The notes under the pieces: model-generated | Told to the model about the DNA's origin: nothing | Databases searched by the model: none | Seen by the model: only the letters and a program-made list of their open reading frames with translations | Position numbers and translations under genes: made by a program | Part shown: positions 4,220-12,846 of the stretch, piece by piece | Layout of the letters: each line of letters opens with the position of its first letter | Position numbering within the stretch: position 1 is the first letter of the stretch | Virus record (IMG/VR): IMGVR_UViG_2675903650_000028 | Reading direction: 5' to 3' (one strand) | Source: a virus | Lineage: Duplodnaviria; Heunggongvirae; Uroviricota; Caudoviricetes | Length of the DNA stretch: 14,391 nucleotides

Positions 4220-4423
4220 TTACGGTGCTGTTTTAAGTCCTGCCGGGATTTCGTTATTATCCATGAGAATAACTTTATCGACCGGATAGCAGTTACCGGG
4301 AATTTTTTGTTCTGCTGCGGCAGCCATGCATTCTTTCATTGAACCGTAAATGTCAATAACCATGTCAACAGGCTCGCCAGTATTAAGAAAAACAGTCAGA
4401 GTGAGGGCAATAGTAGTATTCAT
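4220..4423 (-). CDS. ydfD: YdfD-like small protein (Qin lysis protein homolog)
   Basis: 67 codons from an internal ATG (4421-4423) preceded by AAGGA; the track ORF extends to 4477. Its ATG overlaps the dicB stop (ATGA). Hydrophobic N-terminus (TIALTLTVFL). Position immediately after dicB matches the dicB-ydfD order of Qin; the protein sequence itself is not confidently recalled. Confidence 0.55.
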   Translation of the reverse strand: MNTTIALTLTVFLNTGEPVDMVIDIYGSMKECMAAAAEQKIPGNCYPVDKVILMDNNEIPAGLKTAP

Positions 4424-4608
4424 TGCCAGTATCCTTTTTGCATCGGGCGTAAACGTGCCAGCATTGAAAGAATGCATATTTTATTTAATAGCTCCCGTTC
4501 GTGTTTTCTCTTATTAATGGCATCTTCAGTAAATACAGGGTTACTGATTCTGACACCAATTTCAAAACAACCTTCAGACGTATTGACGTTTGGTAATAAC
4601 GTTTCCAT
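4420..4608 (-). CDS. dicB: Cell division inhibitor DicB
   Basis: 62-aa product from internal ATG 4606-4608 with GAGGA SD. Sequence METLLPNVNTSEGCFEIGV...NKICI.SMLARLR matches my recollection of 62-aa DicB. The track ORF 4420..4704 is a 5'-extended version. Confidence 0.8.
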   Translation of the reverse strand: METLLPNVNTSEGCFEIGVRISNPVFTEDAINKRKHERELLNKICILSMLARLRPMQKGYWQ

Positions 4609-4787
4609 TATCGCGTCCTCAACAATGAATTTTGTGATGCGGTGCCTGGTGCCTCCAGGTGACGTTAACCAGTTAATAATTAACGCCGGATACAGAGAAC
4701 CCACCCATAAGAACCAATACGGAAGTCAACTGGCCTTTTTAACTGTTCCGCGTGCGCTGAGCCGCATTCACCGCATCACAAAATTCA

Positions 4788-4850
4788 CTTTAAAAGGGGC
4801 GGGTATCATAGGAAAAACAAAACGGATACCCGCTAAAAGGTAATCAACAT
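4788..4850 (-). ncRNA. dicF: DicF-like small RNA (approximate ends)
   Basis: On the minus strand: ...UUUUAGCGGGUAUC-(17-nt loop)-GAUACCCGCCCCUUUU, a hairpin plus short U-tract, followed by AAAGUGAAUUUUGUGAUG. Position (between ydfC and dicB) and architecture match my recollection of DicF and its 3' flank. The loop sequence differs from what I recall for K-12. Confidence 0.45.
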
Positions 4851-5174
4851 GGGTTGTTGCAGCGGGGTTGTCACTCAGGCGTATGGTCAACCTGACAACC
4901 CGGTGGACATTTGCGAGGAACGGAGAACCCCCGCCATACTTACCGCCGCGCCATTTCGCGGAGTGCCACAACCGGAAGCGCACGGTCGACGAAAATTTAA
5001 CGACAGGCTATCTATGAACCAGCAACCTCGCCGTGCGCTTTCGCGTTATGCTCTGACTTTTCAGAGAAATATCCTTTCAGTAAACTGTCAGTGCCGGATG
5101 CTCACCCGTGTCCGGCGCACACACTCCACCTCACCCGTGGAGAACTCCTTAATTACCAACCCTCAGGAGGGTGA

Positions 5175-5303
5175 ATGTTAAAATCAACGCTTATTGCTAA
5201 ATGCCTTTATCAAAATCGCATGGTAAGCAGCATTTCAATAGGCGAATCTGTAGTTAAAAGTATTTTCGAAGAGTACTTTCGAAGAGTACTTTTCTGGGCG
5301 TGA
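5175..5303 (+). CDS. Doubtful 42-codon ORF antisense to the dicB operon
   Basis: ATG 5175 is preceded by AGGAGG (5165-5170), which can pair within a CCCUCAGGAGGG hairpin. The ORF contains a tandem 13-nt repeat (not a multiple of 3), which argues against real coding. Confidence 0.2.
   Translation: MLKSTLIAKCLYQNRMVSSISIGESVVKSIFEEYFRRVLFWA
5265..5290. repeat. Perfect tandem 13-mer TTCGAAGAGTACT x2, near-palindromic (AGTACT / TTCGAA cores)
   Basis: Read directly from sequence; preceded by a partial third copy (AGTATT). Confidence 0.7.
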
Positions 5304-5398
5304 TTTTAATAAATGGAATACCAAATTACCGCCAGCAGTTTCAACGCGTATTCTGAAAGCAACTGAAAGAGCAAGTACAATTCGCGTTAACTATTTCA

Positions 5399-5806
5399 TT
5401 AAAGATTTGTGGGATCTTTGATATCCACAGAGCCTAAAGTATGTGCATATGGATGTGCTATTGTGCGCCCCTGTAAATTTGCATCGTTTTCTAAATCTTT
5501 TGATTTCAACAGAACATCAGCAAGACTCTGAATCATGCAGAGATAATCAAAAACAGTTGCCGTTTCTGTTCTGATTGCTGAAATAACATGACCATTCAGG
5601 CAAACAGAAATTACCCGTTCATCAATATCGTTTTTCTGTTTTTGATTATCAGAACCATATAGCCCTGAAAAAGCATTGCGCACATTACGAACCATATTAT
5701 CGATGGTTTCTTTTTTGGTGTATGCCGGGTCAATTTTCACCAGACTATCACCGAGTGTCGTTGCAGCAATTATCTGGATTTCTTTTGGTAAATCTTTAAA
5801 TTCCAT
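5399..5806 (-). CDS. Hypothetical protein (135 aa), low-GC insertion inside the dicB operon
   Basis: ORF with GAGG SD 7 nt upstream of ATG 5806, 22 nt downstream of the ydfC stop. Visibly AT-rich relative to flanking genes. No motif recognised. Confidence 0.6.
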   Translation of the reverse strand: MEFKDLPKEIQIIAATTLGDSLVKIDPAYTKKETIDNMVRNVRNAFSGLYGSDNQKQKNDIDERVISVCLNGHVISAIRTETATVFDYLCMIQSLADVLLKSKDLENDANLQGRTIAHPYAHTLGSVDIKDPTNL

Positions 5807-5828
5807 TATTAGCCTCGTTGGTTAACCA

Positions 5829-6047
5829 TTAACGTGGGTATGTAATCATTCTGGCAATGCTTAATGCCGCTGCTTTTTCCAGATTGGTGATATCCTGCTC
5901 CAGAGCGGACAGATTTTCAGCCTGCTTAGCCCTGGCTTCATTGGCCCATTTCAGGTCCTGCGCAGCCTTAATTTTCTGGTGCATCCACTCATAAAGTTCA
6001 TCATCGGTATAGTCTGGCGCGATGATGACGGGTTCTCGTTTCTGCAT
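5829..6047 (-). CDS. ydfC: YdfC-like protein (72 aa)
   Basis: Length and position after ydfB match the Qin dicB operon; GAGGA SD upstream. Confidence 0.7.
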   Translation of the reverse strand: MQKREPVIIAPDYTDDELYEWMHQKIKAAQDLKWANEARAKQAENLSALEQDITNLEKAAALSIARMITYPR

Positions 6048-6500: not shown

Positions 6501-6533
6501 CAACCAAAAAGATAACGCATTGATTGCGTTATC
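6501..6533 (-). terminator. Intrinsic terminator at the dicA 3' end (bidirectional-looking)
   Basis: GATAACGCA / TGCGTTATC 9-bp stem with 5-nt loop overlaps the dicA stop; followed by TTTTTGG on the minus strand and TTTTGTTTG on the plus strand. Confidence 0.6.
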
Positions 6534-6936
6534 TTTTGTTTGTTCGTTGACGGGCTTTTAATAACTCTTCAAAGAGTTTGTTGAAATTTTTTACTCGGGC
6601 GCGCATCTCGGTGAGCTGAGCATCCTGTTCTGATTCAGGCAATGCATTAAAAAGCTCAAGGAGCTCATGTTCTTTGGGGGATAGAGCAACTGGCTCCTCA
6701 ATAGGTGGTGATGGCTGCTTGTCTTCATCGCCAAATAGAATCCATGTTGGCGAGCACTGCAGTACTTTGCTGAGGGCAAAAAGATTCTTTCCTGTAGGTT
6801 CGCTATCATCCCGCTCCCATTGTGAAACCGATACGTGAGAAATTTTCAGGGCTTTAGCAAGAGACCTTTGGGTGTATTTGAGGTTTTTTCGGCGATATCT
6901 AATGCGTTCGCCAATGGTTAAATTTTTTGTATCCAT
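6529..6936 (-). CDS. dicA: DicA repressor (HTH, Xre/cI-like)
   Basis: 135-aa ORF. N-terminal HTH (LTIGERIRYRRKNLKYTQRSLAKALKISHVSVSQWER) and the rest of the sequence match my recollection of DicA. Divergent from a Cro-like gene. Confidence 0.88.
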   Translation of the reverse strand: MDTKNLTIGERIRYRRKNLKYTQRSLAKALKISHVSVSQWERDDSEPTGKNLFALSKVLQCSPTWILFGDEDKQPSPPIEEPVALSPKEHELLELFNALPESEQDAQLTEMRARVKNFNKLFEELLKARQRTNKR

Positions 6937-11615: not shown

Positions 11616-11684
11616 GACTGTGGGTGCTTGAGGCTATCTGTCTCAGGCATGAACACCAAAAGGCAGATAGAGAAAAGCCCCAGT

Positions 11685-11743
11685 TAACATTACGCGTCCT
11701 GCAAGACGCTTAACATTAATCTGAGGCTCAATCCATGCTGAAC
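11685..11743 (-). ncRNA. Putative Sok-like antisense RNA (approximate)
   Basis: Minus-strand promoter-like TTGCCT-17 nt-TAACCT (plus coordinates 11778-11750). The transcript would be complementary to the SD and start of the upstream in-frame ORF (ATG 11735) and would contain hairpin GCGUC-UUGCAG-GACGC (11693-11708). About 60 nt. Confidence 0.3.
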
Positions 11744-11791
11744 ACATGTAGGTTAGCCTCTTACGTGCCGAAAGGCAAGGAGAAGCAGGCT

Positions 11792-11947
11792 ATGAAGCAG
11801 CAAAAGGCGATGTTAATCGCCCTTATCGTCATCTGTTTAACCGTCATAGTGACGGCACTGGTAACGAGGAAAGACCTCTGCGAGGTACGAATTCGAACCG
11901 GCCAGACGGAGGTCGCTGTCTTCACAGCTTACGAACCTGAGGAGTAA
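11792..11947 (+). CDS. hokD: Hok-family type I toxin (HokD/RelF-like)
   Basis: 51-aa product MKQQKAMLIALIVICLTVIVTALVTRKDLCEVRIRTGQTEVAVFTAYEPEE: Hok signature with one transmembrane helix and CEV.IRTGQTEVAVF. An in-frame upstream start at 11735 gives the 70-aa track ORF (mok-like; not resolved). Confidence 0.85.
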   Translation: MKQQKAMLIALIVICLTVIVTALVTRKDLCEVRIRTGQTEVAVFTAYEPEE

Positions 11948-12036: not shown

Positions 12037-12162
12037 CGTCGCATTATGAGGTTGTAATTTTAGCTACCATGAGACTATCCTAAGGATCTCAAACAGATCT
12101 ATTTTGTATCAAATTTGGTGCATGGCTTTGCCAATAATCGGAAAACAAAAGGACTCATTAGT

Positions 12163-12342
12163 ATGAGCTGCCCACTCAAAAAACACACGCGGTTGAGTAT
12201 TCCGCCTCGCGATAAAAGCGTTGTGGCAGTCCCTCGCCCAGTGATTGATGAAAACTGCGCACATCGTGAACAAGTGAAAAATGCTTTTGATTTCGGTTTT
12301 TCTCGTTATGAGAAAGCCATGGAAGAACTTTCAAAAGTGTAA
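12163..12342 (+). CDS. Small protein upstream of the Doc-family toxin (candidate antitoxin, unclassified)
   Basis: 59 codons from ATG 12163 with AAGGA SD 9 nt upstream; the track ORF starts at GTG 12115. Its stop lies 10-19 nt before the toxin start. No Phd/YefM-like motif recognised. Confidence 0.45.
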   Translation: MSCPLKKHTRLSIPPRDKSVVAVPRPVIDENCAHREQVKNAFDFGFSRYEKAMEELSKV

Positions 12343-12351
12343 TGATGGGTA

Positions 12352-12846
12352 TTGTACTCTATGGCTGAGATTGTTGAAGGAGTGCATTACCTTACGGTTG
12401 ATGATCTTGTTGAAATCAATCATTCCCTAATTGAATTACAGACGCCAGATGAGCCCGTTGGTGTTCTGAGTCCAGATAACTTAAGTTCTTCTCAGGCCCG
12501 TCCCAGCATGGTTCGATGGTATGAACAGACTAATGACATGTTTGTACTGGCATCGGTATTGATTGAAAGTCTGATTCAGAATCATCCGTTTGCTAATGCG
12601 AACAAACGAACAGCTATGATGGCTGGTTACGTCTTCTTGTTGTTGAATGGCTATGAGTTAACAGCACCAGGCGATGAAATCGTGGAAATGGCAGAGGGAC
12701 TGGCCTGCAAAACCTATACTCGAGAAGATCTCGAGAACTGGTTGTGTTATTGGTCTCGCGCGTATGACAGCCGGGAATTATGTAAAACAAGCGCAACTAT
12801 TGTTTTGTATGAAACTATCAAGCTTAAAATAGAACAGCAAAACTAA
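12352..12846 (+). CDS. Doc-family (Fic/Doc) toxin
   Basis: Motif HPFANANKRTA matches the Doc-type H-x-F-x-(D/N)-(A/G)-N-K-R signature. Start is ambiguous (TTG 12352 or ATG 12361) and has a weak SD. Confidence 0.7.
   Translation: MYSMAEIVEGVHYLTVDDLVEINHSLIELQTPDEPVGVLSPDNLSSSQARPSMVRWYEQTNDMFVLASVLIESLIQNHPFANANKRTAMMAGYVFLLLNGYELTAPGDEIVEMAEGLACKTYTREDLENWLCYWSRAYDSRELCKTSATIVLYETIKLKIEQQN

What the first reader, a model, noticed from the sequence alone, without database searches (positions are those of the whole stretch)
5399..5806. Low-GC 135-aa gene inserted inside the dicB operon
Between ydfC and the DicF-like sRNA sits a well-initiated 135-aa ORF (GAGG SD, 22 nt after the ydfC stop) that is visibly more AT-rich than its neighbours. 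As far as I recall, the K-12 Qin operon runs ydfA-ydfB-ydfC-dicF-dicB-ydfD with nothing here. A cargo gene co-transcribed with a division inhibitor and a lysis gene, and derepressed with them when DicA is lost, is a plausible defence, exclusion or host-takeover function. I recognise no motif in it.
Basis: partly seen in the sequence, partly recalled or inferred. Interest (0 to 1): 0.62.

Follow-up and report, generated by a model that had tools for sequence, protein, structure and literature searches.

The report
Two-gene prophage cargo cassette, function unknown
The 135-aa gene is real and is missing from K-12, but it is one half of a widespread, uncharacterised pair of tail-to-tail overlapping prophage genes (the partner is broken in this copy) that usually sits at the very start of the phage's early operon.

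Summary
A 135-aa ORF lies at 5399-5806 (-), 22 nt after ydfC, with a GAGG Shine-Dalgarno. Its GC is 0.37 against about 0.50 in the flanks, and K-12 Qin has nothing there.

The indel is 647 bp (5162-5808) and carries two genes. The second is a convergent 77-aa ORF on the + strand that overlaps the 3' end of ORF135 by 23 nt. Here it is frameshifted by a 13-bp tandem duplication, an allele seen in 1 of 650 complete E. coli genomes that carry the gene.

ORF135 has two modules: an N-terminal helical hairpin shared by early proteins with unrelated C-termini, and a C-terminal "M" module (phrog_23433). M also occurs free-standing as the first gene after the repressor and operators in lambdoid prophages of many Enterobacterales. 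It is almost always paired with the convergent ORF77 family (91/92 and 74/79 loci).

About 15% of E. coli ydfC loci carry the cassette. Pfam, NCBIfam, PADLOC, PDB and fold searches gave no functional match.

My working model, held with low confidence, is a phase-opposed antagonistic pair: M is made on derepression and ORF77 comes from its own promoter. This is a catalogued but uncharacterised accessory cassette of moderate interest.

The parts
5399..5806 (-). ORF135 (135 aa), the gene in the finding; intact
   Evidence: ORF list. phrog_1363 E 3e-42 over residues 1-130. 98% identical to P0001, annotated 'hypothetical protein' in E. coli.
5813..5816 (-). Shine-Dalgarno GAGG, 6 nt before the ATG of ORF135
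   Evidence: Read directly from the sequence.
5657..5806 (-). N module (residues 1-50, MEFKDLP...GLY), predicted helical hairpin
   Evidence: AF2 helices 8-23 and 32-50, pLDDT 73-86. Residues 1-55 also match phrog_9419, 2151, 6937 and 33007. About 35 representative proteins carry this module joined to unrelated C-termini. A 52-aa protein of phage phi191 is the only BFVD match.
5621..5656 (-). Linker (residues 51-62), predicted disordered
   Evidence: pLDDT below 50 for residues 51-62.
5402..5620 (-). M module (residues 63-135): beta-hairpin plus two helices; motif VNG..T..A.DY...LE.(E/D)AN..G(K/R)TI
   Evidence: phrog_23433 E 7.6e-10. Free-standing 75-80-aa homologues occur in many Enterobacterales. 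AF2 strands 65-70 and 73-79, helices 85-100 and 102-111.
5175..5421 (+). Convergent partner gene ORF77 (phrog_10348 family), frameshifted here (pseudogene remnant; the first frame stops at 5303)
   Evidence: The intact 77-aa allele in ATCC 43886, phage Evi and PPompW matches phrog_10348 at E 2.7e-46. Deleting one 13-bp unit restores the 77-aa ORF. PGAP marks it 'frameshifted' in strain 602354.
5267..5292 (+). 13-bp tandem duplication (CGAAGAGTACTTT x2) that breaks ORF77
   Evidence: Alignment with three relatives. The allele is found in 1 of 650 complete E. coli genomes and in IMG/VR loci L016 and L026.
5399..5421 (.). 23-nt overlap of the 3' ends of ORF135 and ORF77
   Evidence: Coordinates. 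The same 23-nt overlap is seen in all 81 complete pairs among L095-L177, and overlaps of 23-53 nt in 74 diverse loci.
5162..5808 (.). The whole 647-bp low-GC cassette that is absent from K-12 Qin
   Evidence: Pairwise alignment with NC_000913.3. GC 0.369.
5829..6047 (-). ydfC, the upstream neighbour in the DicA-controlled operon
   Evidence: phrog_1744 E 2e-39. Annotated ydfC in relatives.
4850..5161 (-). GC-rich untranslated leader shared with K-12; the cassette's downstream junction
   Evidence: Alignments.

Best explanation
Shown. ORF135 is a genuine protein-coding gene of a Qin-like lambdoid prophage. It lies in the DicA-controlled dicB operon and arrived as part of a 647-bp low-GC two-gene cassette. 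The protein joins an N-terminal helical-hairpin module, shared by many early-left-operon proteins with unrelated C-termini, to a C-terminal 'M' module. In other Enterobacterales, M is a free-standing protein of about 78 aa encoded by the first gene behind the repressor's left operators. M genes are almost always followed by a convergent 77-aa gene (ORF77) whose 3' end overlaps theirs.

Inferred (working model). The two genes form a phase-opposed antagonistic pair. ORF77 is made from its own promoter, firing against the early operon, while the prophage is repressed. M is made only on derepression. At that point M neutralises or replaces ORF77, either by protein contact or through convergent transcription and 3' antisense overlap. 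On this model ORF77 is either a lysogen-expressed exclusion factor with M as the phage's own escape, or a buffer against leaky expression of a host-directed M. In this window ORF77 is frameshifted, so only the ORF135 half can still work.
For: Gene reality and polymorphism.
Modular build.
M is the first early-left gene. Copies of the oR-type operators recur between the repressor's stop and M in L086, L089 and L090. In L086 a terminator follows cI and a 10/12 promoter precedes M. A repressor-like ORF with a G[DE]SM motif ends 150-579 nt upstream of M in 50 of 80 loci.
Pairing: 91 of 92 loci with ORF77 have a convergent M ORF, and the one exception is cut by the contig end. 74 of 79 loci with M have a convergent ORF77, with overlaps of 23-53 nt.
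ORF77 is under protein-level selection: 56-66% identity across eleven genera, 31 invariant columns and a fixed length of 77 aa.
Own promoter: TGnTAnnnT lies 38-43 nt before the ORF77 start in 40 of 59 distinct upstream regions.
Precedent: the cI-proximal region is a known hotspot for prophage defence genes, and cognate self-immunity is documented for BstA/aba (PMC8585504).
Against: There is no functional evidence of any kind. No domain, defence model, PDB sequence or fold match exists for M, N or ORF77.
A physical 3' overlap alone would keep two unrelated genes together, so co-occurrence does not prove interaction.
M also occurs with unrelated convergent partners. These are a 63-aa ORF in the 201-aa E. 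coli form (hhalign probability 0.1), and zinc-ribbon or 150-180-aa ORFs in 4 of the 5 exceptions. That argues against a strictly cognate protein pair.
The E. coli cassette lacks the TGnTAnnnT element, and no promoter for ORF77 was called in the window.
The conserved upstream sequence could be kept for RNA structure rather than as a promoter.
The locus counts come from redundant, top-80-capped samples and are not phylogenetically independent.
Confidence: 0.35

Rival explanations
1. The two genes are independent cargo. M (and so ORF135) is a stand-alone early protein aimed at a host or defence target, in the manner of small lambda pL-operon proteins such as Ral, Gam, Kil or CIII. ORF77 is an unrelated moron that stays attached only because the coding 3' ends overlap.
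For: M sits first in the early-left operon. M can be paired with non-homologous convergent genes. ORF135 stays intact in this window and in strain 602354 although ORF77 is broken. The N module is joined to many other C-terminal modules in the same operon slot without any convergent partner.
Against: The pairing persists at 26-60% protein identity across many genera while the flanking repressors and other genes are shuffled. The pair also moved together into a different operon position in E. coli.
Confidence: 0.3
2. The cassette has a regulatory role inside the early operon. M is a small nucleic-acid- or RNAP-binding regulator. The convergent ORF77 promoter damps read-through from the early promoter into dicF/dicB by transcriptional interference or antisense pairing.
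For: M is the promoter-proximal gene. Conserved hairpins and a possible pseudoknot flank the ORF77 start, with apparent compensatory changes seen by eye. Face-to-face promoters are an established switch design in phages 186 and P2 (general knowledge).
Against: K-12 Qin and 38 of 80 sampled ydfC loci lack the cassette yet keep the same leader, dicF and dicB, so it is dispensable for the operon. M has no arginine-rich motif and no fold match to DNA- or RNA-binding proteins. RNAalifold found no consensus structure on the MAFFT alignment. A simple motif search found no counterpart of the element in HK022.
Confidence: 0.15
3. One reading: ORF135 is itself a defence or superinfection-exclusion gene that protects the lysogen.
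For: It is low-GC, polymorphic cargo in a prophage hotspot. DicB in the same operon is reported to protect against phages; this rests on literature knowledge and was not checked here.
Against: It sits 22 nt behind ydfC with no promoter of its own called. In other genera its M module lies directly behind the operators, so it should be silent in a lysogen. PADLOC gave no hit.
Confidence: 0.07

Closest known systems
PHROG families phrog_1363 (full length), phrog_23433 (M module) and phrog_10348 (ORF77)
   Same: Direct sequence membership, at E 3e-42, 7.6e-10 and 2.7e-46 (intact allele) respectively.
   Different: All three are listed as 'unknown function'. PHROGs records neither the two-module build nor the convergent pairing.
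Morons and accessory cargo of lambdoid prophages (cI-to-N hotspot: rexAB, bstA)
   Same: Presence/absence polymorphism, lower GC than the flanks, and a position next to the immunity region. ORF77 points against the surrounding operon and has a candidate promoter of its own (PMC8585504).
   Different: rexAB and bstA are co-directional with cI and lie before the left operators. Here the operators precede M, so M is an early lytic gene. There is no sequence or fold similarity.
Prophage defence with cognate self-immunity (BstA/aba; SieB/Esc with sas antisense RNA in P22)
   Same: Only the logic is shared: one product present in the lysogen, with a counter-element supplied by the phage's own early transcription. 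In P22 this includes an antisense RNA (general knowledge; BstA from PMC8585504).
   Different: No homology. No phenotype is known. aba is a DNA element and Esc is an internal product of sieB, whereas here there are two separate convergent proteins.
Toxin-antitoxin modules
   Same: Two small, tightly linked genes on a mobile element, with occasional inactivation of one partner.
   Different: The genes are convergent and overlap at their 3' ends, rather than forming a co-directional operon. No TA domain was found in Pfam or NCBIfam, and toxicity is untested.
Small lambda pL-operon proteins (N, Ral, CIII, Kil)
   Same: Small size and an early, promoter-proximal position.
   Different: No sequence similarity and no arginine-rich motif of the N type. 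The operon exists without the cassette in K-12.

Membership tests
phrog_1363 / phrog_23433 (uncharacterised phage protein families) | Significant full-length HMM match | tested here: met
   phrog_1363 E 3.1e-42 over residues 1-130 against profile positions 1-138 of 139. phrog_23433 E 7.6e-10 over residues 54-128.
phrog_10348 (ORF77 family) | Intact 77-aa ORF that matches the HMM | tested here: not met
   The window copy is frameshifted (42-aa first frame). The intact allele in L001 matches at E 2.7e-46.
M-ORF77 convergent cassette (defined here) | An M-module gene followed by a convergent ORF77-family gene with overlapping 3' ends | tested here: met
   The window has a 23-nt overlap at 5399-5421. 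The same layout is seen in 91/92 and 74/79 related loci.
Moron (lambdoid accessory gene unit) | Presence/absence polymorphism between otherwise collinear phages, with deviant base composition | tested here: met
Moron (lambdoid accessory gene unit) | Own promoter and terminator; expression from the repressed prophage | tested here: inconclusive
   ORF135 has no promoter called. ORF77 has a conserved TGnTAnnnT in 40/59 non-E. coli upstream regions but not in the E. coli type. Expression cannot be tested with these tools.
Known anti-phage defence systems (PADLOC-DB v2) | Match to any defence-protein model | tested here: not met
   No hit for ORF135, ORF77 or ydfC and none for 12 ORF77 members. 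One of 10 M members gave a chance-level hit, Tin at E 0.032.
Type II toxin-antitoxin | Co-directional bicistronic operon with a recognisable toxin or antitoxin domain | tested here: not met
   The orientation is convergent. There are no Pfam or NCBIfam TA domains.
Type II toxin-antitoxin | One product is toxic and the other neutralises it | not testable with these tools
   This needs expression experiments.
Lambda N-type antiterminator | N-terminal arginine-rich motif, and a requirement for expression of the downstream operon | tested here: not met
   M sequences have no arginine-rich N-terminus. K-12 and 38/80 sampled loci keep dicF and dicB without the gene.
DicF sRNA (Rfam RF00039), for the neighbouring element named in the finding | Covariance-model match | tested here: not met
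   There is no DicF hit at the gathering threshold or at E<=10. The site holds a diverged terminator-like hairpin.

The most novel reading that the evidence does not exclude
M and ORF77 are a new, widespread prophage switch-coupled system built from two protein families with no known relatives. ORF77 acts in the lysogen, for example in exclusion or abortive infection. M, the first product of the derepressed early operon, is its cognate self-immunity factor, reinforced by convergent transcription and 3' antisense overlap. In E. coli the M half has been fused to a shared N-terminal adaptor that defines a swappable-cargo slot between ydfC and dicF.
Probability: 0.2. Interest if true: 0.75.

Novelty: new member of a known kind. 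Interest (0 to 1): 0.5.

Why it matters
The cassette is present in about 12% of complete E. coli genomes (650 of 5426) and in lambdoid prophages of at least a dozen enterobacterial genera. Both proteins are still annotated 'hypothetical', and no paper in the searchable library mentions their PHROG ids, their RefSeq accessions or their signature peptides.

Its fixed place at the head of the early operon, and the strictly kept tail-to-tail overlap with a small opposing gene, make a clear and cheap experimental target. Candidate roles are prophage self-immunity, leak-buffering or host takeover. Phage Evi is a sequenced phage that carries the cassette and could be used to test these.

The work also shows that the ydfC-dicF junction of Qin-like prophages is a cargo slot. 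The alternative genes found there share one N-terminal module.

Tried and rejected
- **Domain libraries.** Pfam, NCBIfam and PADLOC scans of ORF135, ORF77, free-standing M proteins and the 201/212/179/124/133-aa variants gave nothing above noise.
- **PDB sequence search.** Profile searches with M and with ORF77 gave nothing (best E 0.38 and 0.45).
- **Structure prediction.** AF2 with the shallow 18-sequence alignment gave pLDDT 45 and was unusable. It was repeated with 99 sequences and reached pLDDT 75.
- **Homology of the 63-aa convergent ORF** (beside the 201-aa variant) to ORF77 was rejected: hhalign probability 0.1. Its appearance is an artefact of having been included in query alignment A6.
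- **Genome-contig scan for ORF77** returned only 3 loci. A first attempt with alignment A6 failed for lack of conserved stretches.
- **Put-like antiterminator idea.** I asked whether the conserved hairpins beside ORF77 are an HK022 put-like antiterminator. A loose motif search found no counterpart of the element in 13 kb of HK022 (21000-34000), and its only match there is a terminator-like hairpin far from the immunity region. RNAalifold on the MAFFT alignment found no structure, probably because of register shifts. I left this open.
- **Literature.** Searches by PHROG id, RefSeq accession and signature peptide gave 0 papers. The dicBF papers do not mention the gene.

Full report
**1. The observation**

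The ORF is at 5399..5806 on the - strand. It is 135 aa and starts with ATG. The ydfC-like ORF ends at 5829, which leaves 22 nt. GAGG lies 6 nt before the ATG.

The neighbourhood on the - strand runs in this order:
- dicA-like repressor, 6529-6936
- ydfA (DUF1391)
- ydfB
- ydfC
- ORF135
- a GC-rich leader
- a DicF-position hairpin
- dicB, 4420-4608 (Pfam DicB, E 1e-36)
- a DUF1482 ydfD-like gene
- an 826-aa exonuclease
- xis and int

GC is 0.370 for ORF135. It is 0.497 for ydfA-ydfC and 0.521 for the leader. In K-12 MG1655, ydfC is followed directly by the leader and dicF. A pairwise alignment shows that window 5162-5808 (647 bp) has no K-12 counterpart.

**2. What the indel contains**

The close relatives are E. 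coli ATCC 43886, phage Evi and prophage PPompW. All three annotate two genes here: the 135-aa gene and a convergent 77-aa gene whose last 23 nt overlap it.

In the window the second gene (5175-5421, + strand) is broken by a 13-bp tandem duplication at 5267-5292. Removing one unit restores a 77-aa ORF.

Among 650 complete E. coli genomes that carry this gene, only strain 602354 has the duplication. NCBI's PGAP annotation pipeline marks it 'frameshifted' there. Two IMG/VR contigs share the allele.

**3. How polymorphic the slot is**

In complete E. coli genomes, ydfC occurs at 4302 places in 3083 of 5426 genomes. ORF77 occurs at 664 places in 650 genomes, which is about 15% of ydfC loci. ORF135-like DNA occurs in 677 genomes.

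I classified 80 IMG/VR loci that were chosen through ydfC:

| Content of the slot after ydfC | Loci |
|---|---|
| Empty, as in K-12 | 38 |
| ORF135 + ORF77 | 23 |
| 201-aa form (ORF135 plus a 66-aa C-terminal extension) with a different convergent 63-aa ORF | 2 |
| 124-aa protein with the same N-terminus, an unrelated C-terminus and no convergent partner | 11 |
| Too short to classify | 6 |

So the slot 22 nt after ydfC is a cargo site.

**4. Anatomy of the protein**

PHROGs matches the whole protein to phrog_1363. It also matches residues 1-55 to four other families, and residues 54-128 to phrog_23433.

Homologues found by word-indexed search all come from Escherichia or Salmonella. They show one conserved N-terminus (MEFKDLP...GLY) joined to at least five unrelated C-terminal regions.

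An exhaustive profile search of 1.84 billion representative proteins found only 51 hits. About 35 of them have the N module with assorted C-termini. A separate set has the C-terminal 'M' module alone (75-90 aa) or in other fusions.

A profile of M retrieved 98 proteins. They come from Citrobacter, Serratia, Enterobacter, Yersinia, Klebsiella, Pectobacterium, Erwinia, Lonsdalea, Cronobacter, Providencia and others, and every one that carries an annotation is labelled 'hypothetical' or 'uncharacterized'.

AF2 with a 99-sequence alignment gave pLDDT 75:
- a helical hairpin at residues 8-50
- a disordered linker at 51-62
- M as a beta-hairpin (65-79) followed by two helices (85-111)

ORF135 is therefore a fusion of two modules that also exist as separate small proteins.

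**5. Context of free-standing M**

In Serratia, Cronobacter and Klebsiella prophages the M gene lies directly after a CI-type repressor (HTH_3 + Peptidase_S24) and points the same way. It is followed by a convergent ORF of 77-78 aa that overlaps its end.

Copies of the oR operators recur in the gap between the repressor's stop codon and M. In L086 an intrinsic terminator follows cI and a 10/12 promoter precedes M. L167 has the same layout. M is therefore the first gene of the early-left operon, not a passenger on the cI transcript.

In 50 of 80 loci chosen through M, a repressor-like ORF with a G[DE]SM motif ends 150-579 nt upstream.

**6. The pairing**

The convergent ORFs are homologous across genera. 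They show 56-66% identity to the E. coli protein, and 26% for the Cronobacter type. There are 31 invariant columns and the length is almost always 77 aa.

Starting from ORF77, 91 of 92 loci have a convergent M ORF. The one exception ends at a contig edge. The overlap is 23 nt in all 81 complete pairs among the loci fetched through ORF77 (L095-L177).

Starting from M, 74 of 79 loci have ORF77, with overlaps of 23, 26, 33, 51 or 53 nt. Four of the five exceptions carry other convergent genes right after an M-bearing gene.

These samples are redundant and each was capped at 80 loci, so the counts are not independent events.

**7. A promoter for ORF77?**

In 40 of 59 distinct upstream regions, all from outside E. 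coli, TGnTAnnnT starts 38-43 nt before the ORF77 start codon. By eye, a TTCnCC-type hexamer lies 16-17 nt upstream of the TAnnnT hexamer. Together these would make an extended -10 promoter that fires against the early operon.

The same stretch forms conserved hairpins with what look by eye like compensatory changes. Its conservation could therefore serve RNA structure instead.

The E. coli cassette brings only 13 nt (5162-5174) upstream of the ORF77 ATG and lacks this motif. No promoter was called there.

**8. Function**

What can be said from the anatomy:
- (a) ORF135 should be made only when DicA repression is lifted.
- (b) Its M module is normally the very first early product.
- (c) M is kept together with a small gene that points against early transcription and appears to have its own promoter.

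I take as the most likely reading a phase-opposed antagonistic pair. ORF77 would be present in the lysogen, and M would counter it on induction. Alternatively, ORF77 would buffer leaky expression of M. This would be helped by convergent transcription and the 3' overlap.

The logic has precedents in BstA/aba (PMC8585504) and, from general knowledge, in SieB/Esc of P22. I put about 0.35 on this reading.

The main rival, at 0.3, is that the two genes are functionally independent and are held together only by the overlap. In favour of the rival, M tolerates unrelated convergent partners, and ORF135 stays intact where ORF77 is broken.

A regulatory role in the operon is less likely, because K-12 and about half of the sampled loci do without the cassette. 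A lysogen-expressed defence role for ORF135 itself is unlikely, given its position behind the operators.

**9. Verdict**

The thing is a catalogued (PHROGs) but uncharacterised two-gene accessory cassette of lambdoid prophages. It is common in E. coli and widespread in Enterobacterales, and this copy carries a rare inactivated partner gene. I file it as a new member of a known kind (prophage accessory cargo), of moderate interest. It is a clean candidate for experiments.

Noticed in passing
window 4791-4850 (-): At the DicF position the window (and ATCC 43886) has a diverged sequence. The 5' part of K-12 DicF is replaced, and only a 9-bp-stem hairpin (4799-4833) followed by CCCCUUUU remains. 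The fold has MFE -17.3 kcal/mol and z -2.8. Rfam does not call DicF even at E<=10. Phage Evi and PPompW carry canonical DicF at this position.
   Followed up: partly
window 4631-4785 (-): There is a sub-threshold Rfam match to STnc100 (33.5 bits against a gathering score of 47, E 3.5e-5) in the dicB 5' leader. This region is also conserved in K-12.
   Followed up: no
window 5075-5175 (+); L086 6452-6540 and about 40 other loci: Just upstream of the ORF77 start lies a conserved element of about 75 nt. It has two hairpins and a possible pseudoknot (CCAC/GTGG interleaved with GCCTG/CAGGC; GCCGG/CCGGC in L193). It includes a TGnTAnnnT motif outside E. coli. A related sequence occurs unannotated in phages SfII, YeP1-3, EPP-1 and others. 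Whether it acts as a promoter, as a 5'-UTR structure or on the early transcript is unresolved.
   Followed up: partly
window 5353-5381 (+); L086 6286-6258 (-): A promoter-like site (CTGAAA/TTGAGA, 17 nt, TACAAT) lies inside the 3' part of ORF77. In both E. coli and a Serratia prophage its second hexamer ends 40 nt before the ORF77 stop. It points antisense into the M/ORF135 gene. The TACAAT comes from the conserved Thr-Ile codons, so it may be a coincidence.
   Followed up: no
L008, L023 (positions 30-804 after ydfC); L034-L083 subset: The same slot after ydfC holds alternative cargo that starts with the same N module. One is a 201-aa form of ORF135 with a 66-aa C-terminal extension and a non-homologous convergent 63-aa ORF that also overlaps by 23 nt. 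The other is a 124-aa protein with no convergent partner.
   Followed up: partly
L085 (phage PA2) 4501-4944: In Stx phages the N module heads a 147-aa protein further down the early-left operon, between a DUF2303 gene and a PAPS-reductase gene. The module is therefore not tied to the ydfC slot.
   Followed up: no
window 11622-11947 (+): A hok/sok type I toxin-antitoxin locus. Rfam sok scores 118.9 bits (E 4e-27) at 11622-11797, and the ORF at 11735-11947 matches Pfam HOK_GEF (E 3e-23).
   Followed up: partly
window 12115-12846 (+): A Fic/DOC-family protein (164 aa, 12352-12846, Pfam E 1.2e-11, motif HPFANANKR) is preceded by a 75-aa ORF with no Pfam hit. This may be a Doc-type toxin with its antitoxin.
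   Followed up: partly
window 6529-6936 (-) versus L001 2523-3167 and L178 2921-3101: The repressor next to the same ydfABC-ORF135 block differs between close relatives. It is a 135-aa DicA type here. In ATCC 43886 it is a 214-aa helix-turn-helix protein, and in strain 602354 it is a LexA-family protein. This shows mosaic exchange of the immunity module around a conserved early operon.
   Followed up: no
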